Positions 1,385-29,620 of a DNA stretch of 30,320 bases are shown here, in pieces. Every line of letters starts with the position of its first letter. Position 1 is the first letter of the stretch. The notes below the pieces were generated by a model. It did not search any database. It worked only from the letters and a program-made list of their open reading frames with translations, and had not been told where the DNA came from. The stretch comes from a virus. Taxonomy: Duplodnaviria > Heunggongvirae > Uroviricota > Caudoviricetes. Made by a program: the position numbers and the translations under genes. The stretch lies in the IMG/VR virus record IMGVR_UViG_2663762810_000003; one strand, written 5' to 3'.

Positions 1385-2035
1385 TTACAAATTAAAAAAC
1401 GCCCTAGAAATGACACCGCCTACCAAAACCCCTACGCAGATAAAGAATATTATTTCTTTTGGATAAAGTCGGATTAATTCTGAAGCACGAAGTCGGACCT
1501 CTGGTAAGGTCGAACTCTCTGTGTGGCTTGATGCCGATTGTTGCTCTAACCACGACAATGCAGACTGTAACTGAGAACGAGTAAGATCGTTTAAACGTCC
1601 TGTACCGAAATTGATATGGCAATACCGCAGAAGTTTTTGTCGAAGTCCACAGTCTTCACTGTTACGTAGTAATAAACTTACAAGAGCCTTACAGGCATCA
1701 TGATCTTTACATCGCTCAAGCATTGCATGCAGAAAACTCTCCGCTGTTTTATATTGATTTACTGTCATATCATCAATACCAGCTACACCAATCTCCGCAT
1801 GTACTTTTTGCCAAATAATAAACGCTTCAGTATTGCTAGCTTCTGCAATAGCAGCAACCAAGCTATTTAGCTCCTTACGCTGAGCCTTAAGCAAAGGGCG
1901 ATCGTCATCATCATTATTCGAAGGGATTGCGATATTGACAGTATGAGAACCATCATATCGCTCTATCTGAATATTCTTTTCGTGAAAATCACGCCCAGCA
2001 ACGCGATTGTTTGAACCGTTTGAGTTGACGGCCAT
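1385..2035 (-). CDS. hypothetical protein with C-terminal transmembrane anchor; N-terminus shares a motif with the repressor C-terminus
   Basis: 216 aa; strong SD (GGAGGTGA) before the ATG; C-terminal hydrophobic segment IIFFICVGVLVGGVISRAFF; N-terminal NGSNNRVAGRDFHE resembles SGGNNRIAGRDYNE at the end of the upstream repressor. Confidence 0.55.
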   Translation of the reverse strand: MAVNSNGSNNRVAGRDFHEKNIQIERYDGSHTVNIAIPSNNDDDDRPLLKAQRKELNSLVAAIAEASNTEAFIIWQKVHAEIGVAGIDDMTVNQYKTAESFLHAMLERCKDHDACKALVSLLLRNSEDCGLRQKLLRYCHINFGTGRLNDLTRSQLQSALSWLEQQSASSHTESSTLPEVRLRASELIRLYPKEIIFFICVGVLVGGVISRAFFNL

Positions 2036-2050
2036 GTCACCTCCCTACTA

Positions 2051-2455
2051 TCACCTACCCTTAGTTTCGTTATAGTCACGACCAGCGATACGGTTATTAC
2101 CACCAGAAATATTTAACTCACGTCCTGATGGCTGAGTTTCCTTTTCACTGATCGCACCTTTTAAAGCCCCAATCACCGCGTTTTTCACATCTAACGAAGC
2201 TGCTCGAAAGCGAGTAATCAACTCCTGCTCATCATCGTTATAAGTTTCAGGTGAGTGAATTCCCAACACAACATACTGAACATCAAGGCCAAAACGAGAC
2301 AGCGCTGCCAAATACGCAGCATCAGGAAAGCTATCTCCTTTCTCATATCTAAGCTGAGTTAGCTTTTTGACTCCACCAATGTCGCTCATGGCAACTTGAC
2401 TAAGTCCCAATCTTTCCCTTTCCTCACGCAACCGCTGACCAATATCATTTTTCAT
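2051..2455 (-). CDS. HTH (XRE/CI-like) immunity repressor
   Basis: 134 aa; N-terminal helix-turn-helix QRLREERERLGLSQVAMSDIGGVKKLTQLRYEKG; divergent from the rightward early operon, as for P2 C / 186 CI. Confidence 0.8.
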   Translation of the reverse strand: MKNDIGQRLREERERLGLSQVAMSDIGGVKKLTQLRYEKGDSFPDAAYLAALSRFGLDVQYVVLGIHSPETYNDDEQELITRFRAASLDVKNAVIGALKGAISEKETQPSGRELNISGGNNRIAGRDYNETKGR

Positions 2456-4718: not shown

Positions 4719-4981
4719 CCATTCTGGACTACATCGCTACTCATCCGGGGTGTAGCGGCGGAGAGATCGCCGCAGCACTGAATACTCCAACCACAGCCAT
4801 TAATGCTGAGTTACGCCAACTTTGGCGCGGCGGCTTAGTCATCAGAACAAACCGCAGCACAGGTGGTCGCGCTCGCAAAACTGGAGGCCAGGCTTCTTAC
4901 CACGTAAACCCGATGCCGTTCGGGTGTAGCAATCCACTTACTCACATGTTTAACCAGCTACTGAAGGAAGCCAGAACATGA
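4715..4981 (+). CDS. hypothetical small protein, possible winged-helix DNA binder
   Basis: 88 aa; AGGAG SD; translationally coupled to its neighbours. Confidence 0.45.
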   Translation: MTILDYIATHPGCSGGEIAAALNTPTTAINAELRQLWRGGLVIRTNRSTGGRARKTGGQASYHVNPMPFGCSNPLTHMFNQLLKEART

Positions 4982-5277
4982 GCACCATCAACCACCAGAA
5001 GCTACGCGAACTGGCATTTGCCCTGCAACGAATGGCAACGCCTCAAAAATTACTGGCATTTCGCGCAATGCTCTCGCCGTCTGCTGTGCTGGCACTGCTG
5101 GATCAGCTGGAGCACGCCAGAACCACGGCTCCTGCCATTCGCCTCACGCTCCATCATGAAATCGCTGATTTCTGCGCAACGCTGGGGGCACCTGGCGAAC
5201 CGGAAACGCCGGAAGCAATGCAGCAAGAGCTGCTGCAACGCATCGATAACGTTTTTGATTTTTTTCTGAACCAGTAA
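4978..5277 (+). CDS. hypothetical early protein (99 aa)
   Basis: AAGGAAG SD; ORF ends before the structured intergenic region. Confidence 0.45.
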   Translation: MSTINHQKLRELAFALQRMATPQKLLAFRAMLSPSAVLALLDQLEHARTTAPAIRLTLHHEIADFCATLGAPGEPETPEAMQQELLQRIDNVFDFFLNQ

Positions 5278-5298
5278 GAAACCAGAACATGCACACAC

Positions 5299-5560
5299 AA
5301 AAAAACCGCTTGCCATGCCTCAATCGGTCAGGTTACATTTCCGCTGCACCTCATAAAACGGGTGCCGGGATTCTCAACCCGATACAGAGCAAAGCGCATA
5401 ACCGCGCAAGCGGTTTTTTTGTGCGTACTGTATTGCCACGTCTTTTTCGCGTCAGAATTATGGCGGGGCGTACGGGGCCGACTTCGGTCGGGCCGGATTC
5501 TTTGCTCTCCGGTGTTGAGAACCCTGTACGTCTCGCCACCCCGAGATTCTCAACTCTGGA
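5299..5560. repeat. structured non-coding region: 15-bp perfect inverted repeat (5299-5313 / 5406-5420), imperfect 25-28 bp inverted repeat (5367-5394 / 5500-5524), GATTCTCAAC copies at 5369 and 5545 plus an inverted variant at 5512-5521, and a UUCG-loop hairpin (5476-5494)
   Basis: Read directly in the sequence; no ORF with an SD spans it. Confidence 0.5.
5400..5420 (+). terminator. candidate rho-independent terminator (AACCGC-GCAA-GCGGTT followed by a T run)
   Basis: GNRA-type loop, short stem, seven T; may instead be one arm of the long-range inverted repeat. Confidence 0.4.
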
Positions 5561-5599
5561 TGGTGAGTTATTTCTATCACCGAGCAAAGAGGCCACACC

Positions 5600-5830
5600 A
5601 TGGCAGACCGCAAACAGCACCGCGCTATCGCGGAGCGTCGTCACATCCAGACTGAAATCAACCACAGACTTTCCCGCGCATCACGCGTCGCGCAAATCAT
5701 GCACATCAATATGCTGCATGAGCGCAGCCACGCACTATCAAACATTTATTCCGCCTCTGTTTTCAGCTATCTGGCGGATGATCTGCACGAGCTTCAACAG
5801 CTCATCCAGCAGCAAAACAAACTCCATTAA
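5600..5830 (+). CDS. hypothetical protein (76 aa)
   Basis: SD AGAGG 8 nt upstream of the ATG. Confidence 0.45.
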   Translation: MADRKQHRAIAERRHIQTEINHRLSRASRVAQIMHINMLHERSHALSNIYSASVFSYLADDLHELQQLIQQQNKLH

Positions 5831-5902
5831 TTCCTGTTCCGGGCCTTTCCTGCACCTTGCTGCGGGAGGCCTTCGCACATCTGTAACAAGAGGATTGCCG
5901 CA

Positions 5903-6268
5903 ATGATTCTCGCCAACGACTTTCTTGAATACCTGCTCAACACAGAACGTGATCTTGCCGCTCGCGTGCGTGATCGTTATGACATGTACCTGAAATCCCT
6001 GCCTGTACCGCAGCTCGCTGACGGAAAGATTGTTATTGATGGTCGCTACATGATTGACAGCCACGAGGGAAATTACAGGCTTTACCGCATTGAAGGTGGC
6101 ACCCCGTCCGTTATTGGCATTTACCAGCGCCCATCCTCTGCAATCGTCGATGTGATTGCCGACAGCATCCGCATCACACATCGCCATGCCGACACAGAAG
6201 ACACCGTGCTGGAAATTCAGCGGCTGGCTACAGTCTGCCGCGACACCCTGAATGGCATGACGAAGTAA
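5903..6268 (+). CDS. hypothetical protein immediately upstream of the replication gene
   Basis: 121 aa; SD AGAGGA; co-oriented with gpA. Confidence 0.5.
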   Translation: MILANDFLEYLLNTERDLAARVRDRYDMYLKSLPVPQLADGKIVIDGRYMIDSHEGNYRLYRIEGGTPSVIGIYQRPSSAIVDVIADSIRITHRHADTEDTVLEIQRLATVCRDTLNGMTK

Positions 6269-9257: not shown

Positions 9258-10622
9258 TTATTTTATAGTCATATTAGCTATTGATGTGGAAATATTAAAG
9301 ATATGGTTATATTCAAACGCAAAATCACCTTCTATACGCTGAACATAACTTCCCTTTTCATTACGTAATAGTTTTAATGTTTCTTTATCGATGTAATAAT
9401 AATCCAATAGTTCTTTAAGCAATTTAATTTCCGTCTTTGATGAAAAATAATCAGATTTTATATTAAGTAATTCTAATATCTCTTCAGAAGACATTTCCTT
9501 CTTAAGTAGTCGATTTAACATATCTGGAGAAGTTACTTTCAAGAAACAAACCAATGCTAATGCAATCATATAATAATTATCATCATTATTCGCTATACAC
9601 GTATGATTATCCACTACAAGCATAGTTGAAATACATCGTTCAACTTCTCGCAGCGAGCAATTATTGGTTTCAATCAAGCATGATAAGACTCTTACAAAAG
9701 CACCATCTGTATTAATACCTAGAGAGTGATTCTGTTGTAGAGTTTTTTTAATATACGTTGTAATCGTTGTTTTGTTAGATGCTTGTAACACCATAGAGTC
9801 ATACACATTTATTTTGGGCAAAGAAAACCAATAATGAATAAATTTATTCAAGTACAGACCAGTATTGATATCACCATATTTATATGCAATTCCCTTTTCA
9901 AATTGCTCTCGATTCATTACCAATAAGAAAACCATACCTTTCACAGAAAAAAGATGCTTAATTTTTTCCAATAGCTCTAGAGAATAATCTGGGCGGGCTC
10001 GATCAAGTTCATCAATAATAATCAAGGTTTTTCTCTTTGTATTTGTATATATTTCTTCTAAAGCTTTTTTAAAGTCAGCAATTGAGTTTTTTTCCTGCTC
10101 CATGGATTTTATTTTCTCTTCAACAAAAGACTCTAACTCACTATTAATGGAATCGCTAACTGTTTTTCCTGCCTCATCAAGAGCAGAACCATTCACAACA
10201 CCTGCTGTCAGGGTTGTAATAGCTACCTTTGCACCTCCGATTAATATTTTTGCACCTATTTTCTTACCAGTTTTAATAATGCGATCAGCTACATCTTCGG
10301 CCTCTACTCCTCTGTGTTTTAGTAAATTATATAGTTCAGATGATATTGAAATAAATGGATCTGATTGATAATCATTTTCAAATGCATCGAAATAAACAAC
10401 ATCTATATATTCACTATTAGTTAATTCTAATTCTGATTTTAACATCTTAACAAATGATGTTTTACCGCTACCCCATATATCATCTAACGCAAAAACCAAA
10501 TTTGAGTCAGGAGCATTAATAATAAGCCGTATCATTTGATCATATAATGTCTTACGATTAAATATGTCAGATGTAATATCAAAACCATTCTCAAAACCAT
10601 TCTGATTAGTAGTTATATTCAT
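9258..10622 (-). CDS. KAP-family P-loop NTPase, solitary cargo in the accessory locus between A and portal Q
   Basis: 454 aa; modified Walker A ALDDIWGSGKTSF; hydrophobic insert AKILIGGAKVAITTLTAGVV; Walker B LIIIDELDRARPDY; gene and flanks are markedly AT-rich. Confidence 0.8.
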   Translation of the reverse strand: MNITTNQNGFENGFDITSDIFNRKTLYDQMIRLIINAPDSNLVFALDDIWGSGKTSFVKMLKSELELTNSEYIDVVYFDAFENDYQSDPFISISSELYNLLKHRGVEAEDVADRIIKTGKKIGAKILIGGAKVAITTLTAGVVNGSALDEAGKTVSDSINSELESFVEEKIKSMEQEKNSIADFKKALEEIYTNTKRKTLIIIDELDRARPDYSLELLEKIKHLFSVKGMVFLLVMNREQFEKGIAYKYGDINTGLYLNKFIHYWFSLPKINVYDSMVLQASNKTTITTYIKKTLQQNHSLGINTDGAFVRVLSCLIETNNCSLREVERCISTMLVVDNHTCIANNDDNYYMIALALVCFLKVTSPDMLNRLLKKEMSSEEILELLNIKSDYFSSKTEIKLLKELLDYYYIDKETLKLLRNEKGSYVQRIEGDFAFEYNHIFNISTSIANMTIK

Positions 10623-29317: not shown

Positions 29318-29404
29318 TGGTACCCGGAGCGGGACTTGAACCCGCACAGCGCGAACGCCGAGGGATTTTAAATCCCTTGTGTCTACCGATTCCACCATCC
29401 GGGC
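29318..29404 (-). tRNA. leuZ: tRNA-Leu (anticodon UAA), 87 nt with long variable arm
   Basis: Reverse complement reads GCCCGGATGGTGGAATCGGTAGACACAAGGGATTTAAAATCCCTCGGCGTTCGCGCTGTGCGGGTTCAAGTCCCGCTCCGGGTACCA. Confidence 0.95.
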
Positions 29405-29416
29405 TCGGGAAGAAAG

Positions 29417-29490
29417 TGGAGGCGCGTTCCGGAGTCGAACCGGACTAGACGGATTTGCAATCCGCTACATAACCGCTTTGTTAACGCGCC
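29417..29490 (-). tRNA. cysT: tRNA-Cys (anticodon GCA), 74 nt
   Basis: Reverse complement reads GGCGCGTTAACAAAGCGGTTATGTAGCGGATTGCAAATCCGTCTAGTCCGGTTCGACTCCGGAACGCGCCTCCA. Confidence 0.95.
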
Positions 29491-29544
29491 AAATTCTTCA
29501 GGCCTTTCAGCCAGACATCCGCTTGAGGCCGATGTCTTTTAAAC

Positions 29545-29620
<76 letters not shown>

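What the first reader, a model, noticed from the sequence alone, without database searches (positions are those of the whole stretch)
5278..5599. Structured 320-bp non-coding region inside the early operon with nested inverted repeats and repeated GATTCTCAAC motifs
No credible ORF spans this gap. It contains a perfect 15-bp inverted repeat 94 bp apart (5299-5313 / 5406-5420), an imperfect 25-28 bp inverted repeat whose arms interleave with the first (5367-5394 / 5500-5524), the decamer GATTCTCAAC at 5369 and 5545 with an inverted variant at 5512-5521, and a UUCG-loop hairpin (5476-5494). Interleaved arms argue against one simple hairpin. It could be a phage sRNA ending at the terminator-like hairpin near 5400-5420, an iteron/operator array, or an origin-like element.
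Basis: seen in the sequence. Interest (0 to 1): 0.5.

Follow-up and report, generated by a model that had tools for sequence, protein, structure and literature searches.

The report
Antisense-RNA immunity cassette in P2-like prophage
The "structured gap" is a known kind of phage antisense-RNA switch (an IsrK-like decoy RNA plus a C4/CI-type antisense RNA) that most likely blocks translation of a small anti-repressor gene just downstream, so it is real and functional but largely ordinary.

Summary
The repeats are real and are explained. Window 5278-5599 holds two Rfam families above their curated thresholds. One is an IsrK-type sRNA (5346-5420, 63.1 bits). The other is a C4/CI-type antisense RNA (5456-5543, 78.5 bits). 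Targets a1/b1 lie inside IsrK. Targets b2/a2 lie downstream, and a2 covers the Shine-Dalgarno sequence of ORF 5600-5830. That ORF is a homologue of the phage P4 epsilon "derepression" protein. Across 25 related P88-like prophages, variation is concentrated in these six patches. It is compensatory for both target sets (0/500 shuffles). Phage P4 carries the same isrK-C4-epsilon order. The element is therefore a P1/P4/Gifsy-1-type immunity cassette, here in a P2-family (Xuanwuvirus-like) E. coli prophage upstream of replication gene A. Origin, iteron and coding readings are rejected. One feature has no precedent that I found: the 15-21 bp long-range repeat (5293-5313/5406-5426) enclosing IsrK. 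It occurs only in this phage lineage. It shows two compensatory pairs in a divergent sub-lineage. Its role is unknown.

The parts
5293..5313 (+). Left arm of the long-range inverted repeat I1. It consists of an A7 tract plus CCGCTTGC, lies 16 nt after the stop codon of the upstream ORF, and overlaps the -35 hexamer of the IsrK promoter.
   Evidence: I1, 21 nt, 95%; the MFE fold of 5285-5430 uses this helix (-54.4 kcal/mol, z -5.4); compensatory changes at pairs 5297-5422 and 5298-5421; absent from P4-type loci.
5310..5339 (+). Putative sigma-70 promoter of the IsrK-like RNA: TTGCCA, 18-nt spacer, TACATT. The predicted start is about 5346.
   Evidence: 9/12 match. Both hexamers are invariant while the spacer varies in 25 homologues. 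The predicted start coincides with position 1 of the isrK model. The start site itself is inferred.
5346..5420 (+). IsrK-type sRNA, equivalent to P4 seqA plus terminator t1. It has hairpin 1 (5346-5365), hairpin 2 (5366-5381) and the terminator.
   Evidence: Rfam RF01394, 63.1 bits against a gathering score of 50, E 1.8e-11. Hairpin 1 covaries (A-U to C-G).
5367..5378 (+). b1, the upstream target or decoy for C4 segment b'. It contains GATTCTCAAC.
   Evidence: Covariation with b' (helix 1: 4 pairs changed on both sides).
5386..5394 (+). a1, the upstream target or decoy for C4 loop a' (AGAGCAAAG).
   Evidence: I11, 9/9. (helix 2: 7 pairs changed on both sides).
5400..5420 (+). Rho-independent terminator of IsrK (t1-like): AACCGC-GCAA-GCGGTT followed by a U tract.
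   Evidence: terminator scan. (3' hairpin of the isrK model). 100% of cells paired.
5406..5426 (+). Right arm of the long-range repeat I1. It covers the terminator loop and 3' half, the U tract, and 6 nt beyond.
5456..5543 (+). C4/CI-type antisense RNA. A 17-bp closing stem (5461-5477/5522-5538) encloses a UUCG hairpin (5478-5491) and a second hairpin (5492-5513).
   Evidence: Rfam RF01695, 78.5 bits against a gathering score of 45, E 5.3e-14. Folding it alone reproduces the model structure (-47.5 kcal/mol, z -5.2).
5497..5508 (+). a', the hypervariable loop of C4 hairpin 2. It is complementary to a1 and a2.
5514..5524 (+). b', the hypervariable single-stranded junction of C4. It is complementary to b1 and b2.
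5543..5560 (+). b2, the downstream target of b'. It contains the second GATTCTCAAC. The pairing extends into the 3' arm of C4 hairpin 2.
   Evidence: I2: 5508-5521/5547-5560. (helix 2).
5582..5592 (+). a2, the downstream target of a' (GAGCAAAGAGG). It overlaps the Shine-Dalgarno sequence AGAGG (5588-5592), which lies 7 nt before ATG 5600.
   Evidence: I12, 9/9. (helix 1: 7 pairs changed on both sides); in the read-through transcript the MFE fold pairs a'/b' with a2/b2.
5600..5830 (+). Regulated gene: a 76-aa homologue of the P4 epsilon 'derepression' protein, a putative anti-repressor.
   Evidence: Pfam PF25738, 33.8 bits against a cut-off of 27. 34% identity to P4 epsilon, E 4e-10. It starts about 56 nt after C4 in all 27 gpA-type loci and in the divergent sub-lineage.

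Best explanation
The region is an RNA-based secondary immunity cassette of the P1 c4 / P4 CI / Gifsy-1 IsrK type. It sits in the early operon of a P88-like (P2-family) E. coli prophage.

Proposed mechanism:
1. A promoter at 5310-5339 starts transcription near 5346.
2. Most transcripts stop at the terminator (5400-5420). This yields a ~75-nt IsrK-like sRNA that carries target mimics b1 and a1.
3. Read-through transcripts, and transcripts arriving from the upstream early promoter, contain the C4 element (5456-5543). By homology this element is cut out as a stable tRNA-like RNA.
4. Its two exposed segments, a' and b', pair with b2 and a2 just downstream.
5. Because a2 covers the Shine-Dalgarno sequence of ORF 5600, pairing blocks translation of the epsilon-like anti-repressor. 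By polarity it probably also lowers expression of the downstream 121-aa ORF and replication gene A.
6. The IsrK-like RNA carries the same target sequences. It can therefore titrate C4, or open the self-inhibited read-through mRNA, and so switch the anti-repressor on.
7. The hypervariable a'/b' segments and their co-varying targets define immunity specificity.

What is shown here:
- family membership;
- RNA structure;
- complementarity of the segments;
- covariation with both target sets;
- overlap of a2 with the ribosome-binding site;
- conserved promoter hexamers and terminator;
- a conserved gene order.

What is inferred from homologous systems:
- RNase P processing;
- the translational block and polarity;
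- the decoy role of IsrK;
- the anti-repressor activity of the 76-aa protein.
For: - Rfam hits above gathering score for both RNAs. The same pair of hits occurs in the same order in phage P4, ahead of epsilon, and in a Stx-type lambdoid phage.
- The C4 sequence alone folds into the family structure.
- The loops-only duplex (5496-5526) gives -32.5 kcal/mol with IsrK and -29.1 kcal/mol with the downstream leader.
- In 25 distinct P88-like homologues, 73% of all variation lies in the six pairing patches, which make up 30% of columns.
- C4 segments versus a1/b1: 11 pairs changed on both sides, 91 such cells against 24.4 in shuffles, 0/500.
- C4 segments versus a2/b2: 11 pairs changed on both sides, 85 cells against 24.1, 0/500. 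Sliding controls collapse in both cases.
- Across 96 non-redundant C4 loci there are 36 different a' and 21 different b' sequences. A locus's own targets are the best match in 82/96 (a', upstream) and 75/96 (a', downstream).
- a2 overlaps the SD of ORF 5600.
- ORF 5600 belongs to the Derepression family and resembles P4 epsilon.
- The read-through RNA folds with a'/b' paired to a2/b2 in cis. This matches the translationally inactive 'structure A' shown experimentally for Gifsy-1 (PMC4825925).
- The literature equates Rfam isrK/C4 with P4 seqA/CI (PMC10111431; PMC3632133). It also states that C4 is needed to repress the P1 anti-repressor operon (PMC8198154).
Against: - There are no expression data for this prophage. 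The start site, processing and RNA half-lives are all inferred.
- The c4-a1b1 Rfam model scores only 15.9 bits against a threshold of 46.7.
- In P4 the CI RNA acts mainly through transcription termination, not ribosome-binding-site occlusion. The dominant mode here is therefore uncertain.
- In Gifsy-1 the experimentally shown effect of IsrK is activation. A repressive role for the C4-like STnc1160 was not demonstrated there.
- The repressor of this prophage is a 134-aa HTH protein. It differs from the P88 repressor, so it is untested whether the epsilon-like protein acts on the phage's own repressor.
- The long-range repeat I1 is not accounted for by the classical model.
Confidence: 0.85

Rival explanations
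1. P4-style mode. The C4 RNA works mainly by promoting premature transcription termination rather than by blocking the ribosome-binding site. Termination would occur at the IsrK terminator through a1/b1 pairing, and at sites downstream through a2/b2. The main output would be silencing of replication gene A.
For: The order isrK-terminator-C4-target-epsilon is the same as in P4. Gene A lies downstream in the same operon. From my own knowledge of the P4 literature (Briani et al. 2000; Sabbattini et al. 1995, the latter cited), CI pairing with seqA enhances termination at t1.
Against: Here a2 sits directly on the SD, 7 nt before the ATG, as in P1, and epsilon starts 56 nt after C4. In P4-type loci epsilon starts about 315 nt after the C4 pattern start. 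No further + strand terminator was detected between C4 and ORF 5600. The two modes are not mutually exclusive.
Confidence: 0.35
2. The long-range inverted repeat I1 (5293-5313/5406-5426) is itself a functional RNA helix. It can form only in transcripts that start upstream, at the early promoter, and read through the IsrK terminator. It would mark those transcripts for a different fate. Possibilities include RNase III cleavage that excises the IsrK decoy or separates upstream from downstream mRNA, or replacement of the local terminator hairpin.
For: - The helix dominates the predicted fold of 5285-5430 and replaces the local terminator hairpin.
- It is present in every P88-like locus, whatever the upstream flank.
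- It is retained in a divergent sub-lineage (gpA 30-59% identical) with compensatory changes at two pairs beyond the U tract: A-U to G-C in 8 sequences and C-G to U-A in 6 sequences.
- U-G wobbles occur at a third pair.
Against: - All the compensatory changes trace to a single phylogenetic split.
- Within the close group there is no covariation. The only variable internal pair (5311-5408) is mismatched in 23 of 25 sequences.
- The left arm overlaps the promoter (A tract as a possible UP element, plus the -35 hexamer) and the right arm overlaps the terminator. Each arm is therefore conserved for other reasons.
- The left arm competes for the 3' arm of the terminator, which is kinetically unfavourable for antitermination.
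- There is no counterpart in P4-type or Stx-type loci.
Confidence: 0.3
3. The repeats are DNA-level elements (iterons, an operator array or a replication origin) bound by neighbouring small DNA-binding proteins.
For: Direct and inverted copies of a 10-14 nt motif lie within 190 bp, next to a replication gene and to winged-helix/MarR-like ORFs.
Against: - The copies change in concert as Watson-Crick and G-U partners of the C4 segments (G-C to G-U at two pairs). This is an RNA signature.
- The motif sequence itself is hypervariable between otherwise near-identical phages. That would require the binding protein to change each time.
- There are only two direct copies, 176 bp apart.
- From established knowledge, the P2-type origin lies inside gene A.
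Confidence: 0.03
4. The region is protein-coding. Candidates are the 205-aa ORF 5289-5906, the minus-strand ORF annotated as gp13 in phage P88, or an orf45-like leader peptide starting at ATG 5460.
For: Mechanical ORFs exist. P88 annotates a minus-strand CDS over the equivalent of 5351-5539. Gifsy-1 has a translated orf45 that overlaps its C4-like RNA.
Against: Homologues carry 1-2 nt indels at six places. Variation is confined to the pairing patches rather than to codon third positions. There is no Shine-Dalgarno sequence before ATG 5460. The ORF from 5460 would overlap the epsilon-like gene out of frame.
Confidence: 0.04

Closest known systems
Satellite phage P4 immunity region (seqA / terminator t1, CI RNA, seqC, then epsilon)
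   Same: The same two Rfam families hit at similar scores and in the same order (isrK 60.8 bits, C4 74.9 bits), followed by the epsilon derepression gene. The window's 76-aa protein is 34% identical to P4 epsilon. The scaffold is conserved, and the a'/b' segments are hypervariable with matching targets on both sides.
   Different: The host element is a full-size P2-family phage with a gpA rolling-circle replication protein, not a satellite with alpha primase. Epsilon follows C4 after 56 nt with its SD inside target a2, whereas in P4-type loci epsilon starts about 315 nt after the C4 pattern start. No a' or b' sequence is shared between the 27 gpA-type and 54 alpha-type loci sampled. The long-range repeat I1 is absent from P4-type loci.
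Phage P1/P7 immI: c4 antisense RNA, icd, ant
   Same: The antisense RNA is co-transcribed with its own targets. One set lies upstream (a1/b1) and one downstream (a2/b2). The downstream set overlaps the ribosome-binding site of the first gene, and the operon encodes an anti-repressor (PMC8198154; target layout from my own knowledge of Citron & Schuster 1990 and Biere et al. 1992).
   Different: The regulated gene is an epsilon-type 76-aa protein, not icd/ant. The upstream target region here is a terminated IsrK-type sRNA. It scores only 15.9 bits on the c4-a1b1 model.
Salmonella Gifsy-1 isrK / STnc1160 (orf45) / anrP locus
   Same: An IsrK sRNA has its own promoter and a leaky terminator. The read-through mRNA is self-inhibited by pairing between the IsrK-like and downstream segments. 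A C4-like stable RNA is processed from the read-through transcript, and an anti-repressor lies downstream (PMC4825925). The window's read-through RNA is predicted to fold in the same self-inhibited way.
   Different: Gifsy-1 is lambdoid. Its regulated anti-repressor AnrP is unrelated to epsilon and is translated by coupling to orf45. No conserved orf45-like frame exists here.

Membership tests
Rfam RF01695 C4 antisense RNA (P1 c4 / P4 CI) | Covariance-model score at or above the curated gathering score | tested here: met
   78.5 bits against 45, full-length match to model positions 1-87, at 5456-5543.
Rfam RF01695 C4 antisense RNA (P1 c4 / P4 CI) | Long closing stem enclosing two hairpins, with an exposed loop (a') and junction (b') | tested here: met
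   The MFE and centroid folds of 5461-5541 reproduce this structure (-47.5 kcal/mol, z -5.2).
Rfam RF01695 C4 antisense RNA (P1 c4 / P4 CI) | a'/b' complementary to target sets both upstream and downstream on the same transcript, and co-varying with them | tested here: met
   For each target set, 11 pairs are changed on both sides, with 0/500 shuffles reaching the observed values.
Rfam RF01695 C4 antisense RNA (P1 c4 / P4 CI) | Maturation from a longer transcript by RNase P (5' end) | not testable with these tools
   Requires RNA end mapping in wild-type and rnpA(ts) cells.
Rfam RF01394 isrK (P4 seqA/t1 equivalent) | Covariance-model score at or above the gathering score; two 5' hairpins plus a Rho-independent terminator | tested here: met
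   63.1 bits against 50 at 5346-5420. The terminator is detected independently. Hairpin 1 shows an A-U to C-G change.
Rfam RF01394 isrK (P4 seqA/t1 equivalent) | Own promoter giving a discrete sRNA; Hfq binding | tested here: inconclusive
   The promoter-like site 5310-5339 has invariant hexamers and a variable spacer. No transcript or Hfq data are available.
Rfam RF03163 c4-a1b1 | Covariance-model score at or above the gathering score | tested here: not met
   15.9 bits against 46.7 at 5333-5385. P4 itself is also just below threshold at 44.1 bits. Functional equivalence of a1/b1 rests on complementarity and covariation, not on this model.
P1-type translational control (target over the RBS of the first downstream gene) | The downstream target overlaps the Shine-Dalgarno sequence or start codon | tested here: met
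   a2 at 5582-5592 includes AGAGG at 5588-5592, 7 nt before ATG 5600. The actual repression was not tested.
P4-like satellite | Alpha primase-helicase, sid/delta/psu genes, dependence on a helper phage | tested here: not met
   The replication gene is P2 gpA-type (PF05840, 437 bits). The window carries P2-type portal, terminase, capsid and tail genes.
Pfam PF25738 Derepression (P4 epsilon) family, for ORF 5600-5830 | HMM score above the curated cut-off; similarity to P4 epsilon | tested here: met
   33.8 bits against 27. BLASTP against P4 epsilon gives E 4e-10 and 34% identity over 50 aa. Binding to a repressor was not tested.
Iteron array / replication origin | Several regularly spaced direct repeats bound by the replication initiator | tested here: not met
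   There are two direct copies 176 bp apart plus one inverted copy. The copies covary as RNA pairs, including G-U.

The most novel reading that the evidence does not exclude
The lineage-specific long-range helix I1 (5293-5313 with 5406-5426) may be a functional RNA device that tells transcripts apart by their promoter of origin. Only early-promoter transcripts carry the left arm. In those transcripts the helix would swallow the IsrK terminator hairpin and U tract, creating a ~20-bp duplex. That duplex could be an RNase III site or an insulator. It would change how the decoy, the C4 RNA and the epsilon/gene A message are produced in lytic growth versus lysogeny. This would add a layer not described for P1, P4 or Gifsy-1.
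Probability: 0.25. Interest if true: 0.5.

Novelty: new member of a known kind. Interest (0 to 1): 0.3.

Why it matters
The cassette is unannotated in RefSeq and GenBank records of these prophages. One record even carries a probably spurious CDS over it. A match to window 5200-5700 is present in 1181 of 5426 complete E. coli genomes.

It shows that helper-type P2-family phages carry the same RNA immunity and epsilon module as the P4 satellites that parasitise them. This bears on the evolutionary origin of the P4 immunity/derepression region. It also bears on how these non-SOS prophages may be induced, through an IsrK-to-C4-to-anti-repressor cascade as in Gifsy-1.

The many a'/b' specificity types make this a natural system for studying how RNA-based immunity diversifies. 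Eleven a' and seven b' variants were found in the P88-like sample, and none is shared with P4-type elements. Practically, the result is mostly an annotation fix rather than a discovery.

Tried and rejected
- An all-against-all RNAduplex computation on 96 loci timed out. I replaced it with an ungapped complementarity score.
- A genome-contig scan with an epsilon alignment returned only 3 loci, all close relatives. One is a probable contaminant in a Vagococcus assembly. It gave too little diversity, so I used DNA-pattern scans of viral contigs instead.
- NCBIfam gave no hit for the 76-aa, 121-aa, 99-aa or gpA proteins.
- The second promoter-like site (5433-5461) was rejected. Its -35 hexamer is changed (T5434C) in many homologues, and its predicted start would fall inside the C4 stem.
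- I considered whether the helper phage's C4 gives cross-immunity against P4-type satellites. No a' or b' sequence is shared between gpA-type and alpha-type loci.
- Classical antitermination by I1 was considered and judged unlikely. The left arm has the same sense as the terminator's 5' arm, so it can only compete for the 3' arm.
- The weak sub-threshold Rfam hits (STnc410, manA-II, CRISPR-DR33) were taken as chance.
- The P1 genome paper (PMC523184) is not held. Details of the P1 target layout rest on my own knowledge.
- Several literature calls failed on the 3-character term limit.

Full report
**Observation.** The region lies between ORF 4978-5277 (+, 99 aa) and ORF 5600-5830 (+, 76 aa).
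These are:
  - the perfect 15-bp inverted repeat 5299-5313/5406-5420, which extends to 21 nt at 95%;
  - the split imperfect repeat 5368-5378/5514-5524 plus 5386-5394/5500-5508;
  - the decamer GATTCTCAAC, exact only at 5369 and 5545 in the whole 30 kb;
  - a one-mismatch inverted copy at 5514-5523, 2 nt from the stated coordinates;
  - the UUCG hairpin.
- Mechanical ORFs cross the gap but are not credible. Homologues carry 1-2 nt indels at six positions, and variation is not codon-like.

**Identity.**
- An Rfam scan at curated thresholds finds two RNAs on the + strand. One is IsrK (RF01394, 5346-5420, 63.1 bits, threshold 50). The other is the C4 antisense RNA (RF01695, 5456-5543, 78.5 bits, threshold 45).
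- The UUCG hairpin is the first internal hairpin of C4. The "terminator-like hairpin" is the IsrK terminator, which a consensus scan also finds.
- C4 alone folds into the family structure (-47.5 kcal/mol, z -5.2).
The segments are a' (5497-5508) and b' (5514-5524). Targets b1 (5367-5378) and a1 (5386-5394) lie inside IsrK. Targets b2 (5543-5560) and a2 (5582-5592) lie downstream.
- a2 contains the Shine-Dalgarno sequence AGAGG (5588-5592), 7 nt before ATG 5600.

**Context.**
- The window is a P88-like (Xuanwuvirus, Peduoviridae) prophage of E. coli. Window 5200-5700 is 100% identical to a stretch of strain TUM9812. A match is present in 1181 of 5426 complete genomes, and it is 88-89% identical to phage P88 and relatives.
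- Upstream lie an integrase, a 134-aa HTH repressor and a rightward early operon.
- Downstream lie a 121-aa ORF and a 920-aa P2 gpA-type replication endonuclease (PF05840, 437 bits).
- ORF 5600-5830 belongs to Pfam 'Derepression' (PF25738, 33.8 bits). It is 34% identical to the P4 epsilon helper-derepression protein.
- RefSeq and GenBank annotate no RNA gene here. P88 even carries a minus-strand hypothetical CDS over the RNAs.

**Comparison with the characterised systems.**
- Phage P4 gives the same two Rfam hits in the same order, followed by epsilon.
- A Stx-type lambdoid phage gives the same pair ahead of a putative regulator gene.
- Published work equates Rfam isrK/C4 with P4 seqA/CI (PMC10111431; PMC3632133).
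- It describes the Gifsy-1 IsrK / STnc1160 / AnrP cascade (PMC4825925).
- It states that C4 is required to keep the P1 anti-repressor operon off (PMC8198154).

**Comparative test of the mechanism.**
- A pattern scan of viral contigs for the conserved C4 hairpin returned 120 loci.
- Among 96 non-redundant loci the scaffold is conserved, but there are 36 different a' loops and 21 different b' segments. A locus's own upstream and downstream targets match its own loops far better than those of other loci. For a', the own target is best in 82/96 upstream and 75/96 downstream.
- In an alignment of 25 distinct P88-like sequences (A2), 73% of all variation falls in the six pairing patches, which make up 30% of columns.
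- Explicit pair counts show 11 pairs changed on both sides for C4 versus a1/b1 (91 cells against 24.4 in shuffles). They show 11 such pairs for C4 versus a2/b2 (85 cells against 24.1). No shuffle in 500 reached either value, and the signal collapses when partners are slid by 1-3 columns.
- G-C to G-U changes occur, as expected for RNA pairing and not for protein-binding DNA repeats.
- The read-through transcript 5346-5610 is predicted to pair a'/b' with a2/b2 in cis and bury the ribosome-binding site. This resembles the inactive conformer shown for Gifsy-1.

**Promoter.** TTGCCA (5310), an 18-nt spacer, then TACATT (ending 5339) predicts a start near 5346, which is position 1 of the isrK model. 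Both hexamers are invariant while the spacer varies. A second promoter-like site at 5433-5461 is not conserved and was discarded.

**Distribution.**
- Of the sampled loci, 27 are gpA-type phages. All of them have an epsilon-like gene starting about 56 nt after C4. Another 54 are P4-type satellites (alpha primase), where epsilon, when found, lies about 190 nt further away.
- The two groups share no a' or b' sequence.
- A second scan anchored on the IsrK promoter and hairpin found a divergent sub-lineage. Its gpA is 30-59% identical and its epsilon-like protein 31-47% identical. It has the same order isrK-C4-epsilon-gpA. One contig carries two tandem cassettes.

**The unexplained part.**
- The long-range repeat I1 (5293-5313/5406-5426) encloses the whole IsrK unit. 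Its right arm covers the terminator's loop and 3' half, the U tract and 6 nt beyond. Its left arm is an A7 tract plus CCGCTTGC, which overlaps the -35 hexamer.
- I1 occurs only in the gpA-type lineage.
- Within close relatives it does not covary. The window's perfect 15 bp is a minority state, because pair 5311-5408 is mismatched in 23 of 25 sequences.
- In the divergent sub-lineage, however, the part of the helix beyond the U tract is kept through two compensatory changes. Pair 5297-5422 is A-U in 14 sequences and G-C in 8. Pair 5298-5421 is C-G in 14 and U-A in 6. Pair 5311-5408 becomes U-A or U-G.
- All of this traces to one phylogenetic split, so the evidence is suggestive and not conclusive.
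- Thermodynamically the helix replaces the local terminator hairpin. It can exist only in transcripts that start upstream of the IsrK promoter and pass the terminator.
- An RNase III processing site, or an insulating helix specific to early-promoter transcripts, is the most attractive reading. This is inference only.

**Verdict.**
- The finding is real. It is a P1/P4/Gifsy-1-type antisense-RNA immunity cassette, meaning an IsrK decoy, a C4 antisense RNA and targets over the RBS of an epsilon-like anti-repressor gene. It sits in a P2-family prophage.
The iteron and origin options are rejected.
- It is a new, unannotated member of a known kind. Interest is modest, and is raised slightly by the conserved long-range helix and by the link between helper-phage and satellite immunity modules.

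Noticed in passing
window 9258-10622 (-): A 454-aa KAP-family P-loop NTPase lies just after replication gene A. It matches the PADLOC candidate defence family PDC-S20 (254 bits) and, more weakly, PifA and QatA. In phage P88 this position carries ParM/partition genes instead, so it looks like a variable cargo or defence slot.
   Followed up: partly
L187 3638-4804 (IMG/VR contig): A divergent P2-like phage carries two tandem isrK-C4-epsilon cassettes about 680 bp apart. Each has its own long-range repeat arms and a different epsilon-like protein (47% and 37% identical to the window's).
   Followed up: partly
L002 (phage P88 NC_026014) 5033-5221 (-), equivalent to window ~5351-5539: The annotated hypothetical protein gp13 lies antisense over the IsrK and C4 RNAs and is probably a spurious CDS. 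RefSeq E. coli records annotate nothing in the gap.
   Followed up: partly
window 1385-2455 (-) versus L001 and L002: The repressor next to the integrase differs between phages that share the same RNA cassette. It is a 134-aa HTH protein plus a 216-aa ORF of no known family here, a ~106-aa HTH protein in strain Z0117EC0133, and a 93-aa C protein in P88. This raises the question of which repressor the epsilon-like protein targets.
   Followed up: no
window 29318-29620 (-): Three tRNA genes (Leu-TAA, Cys-GCA, Gly-GCC) lie at the far end of the window. They are probably host genes flanking the prophage end.
   Followed up: no
L006 (Vagococcus sp. WN89Y contig): An 87%-identical epsilon-like gene with the same flanks appears in a Vagococcus (Firmicutes) draft assembly. 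This most likely reflects enterobacterial contamination of that assembly.
   Followed up: no
window 1-25000 versus E. coli genomes: No complete E. coli genome matches the first 25 kb contiguously. The best hits cover 83% in 7 pieces at ~94% identity, so this prophage is a mosaic relative to sequenced relatives.
   Followed up: no
window 5310-5320 and 5433-5443: The direct repeat TTGCCAYGYCT occurs at the IsrK promoter -35 hexamer and again between IsrK and C4 (D9). The second copy is not conserved as a promoter, and its meaning is unknown.
   Followed up: partly
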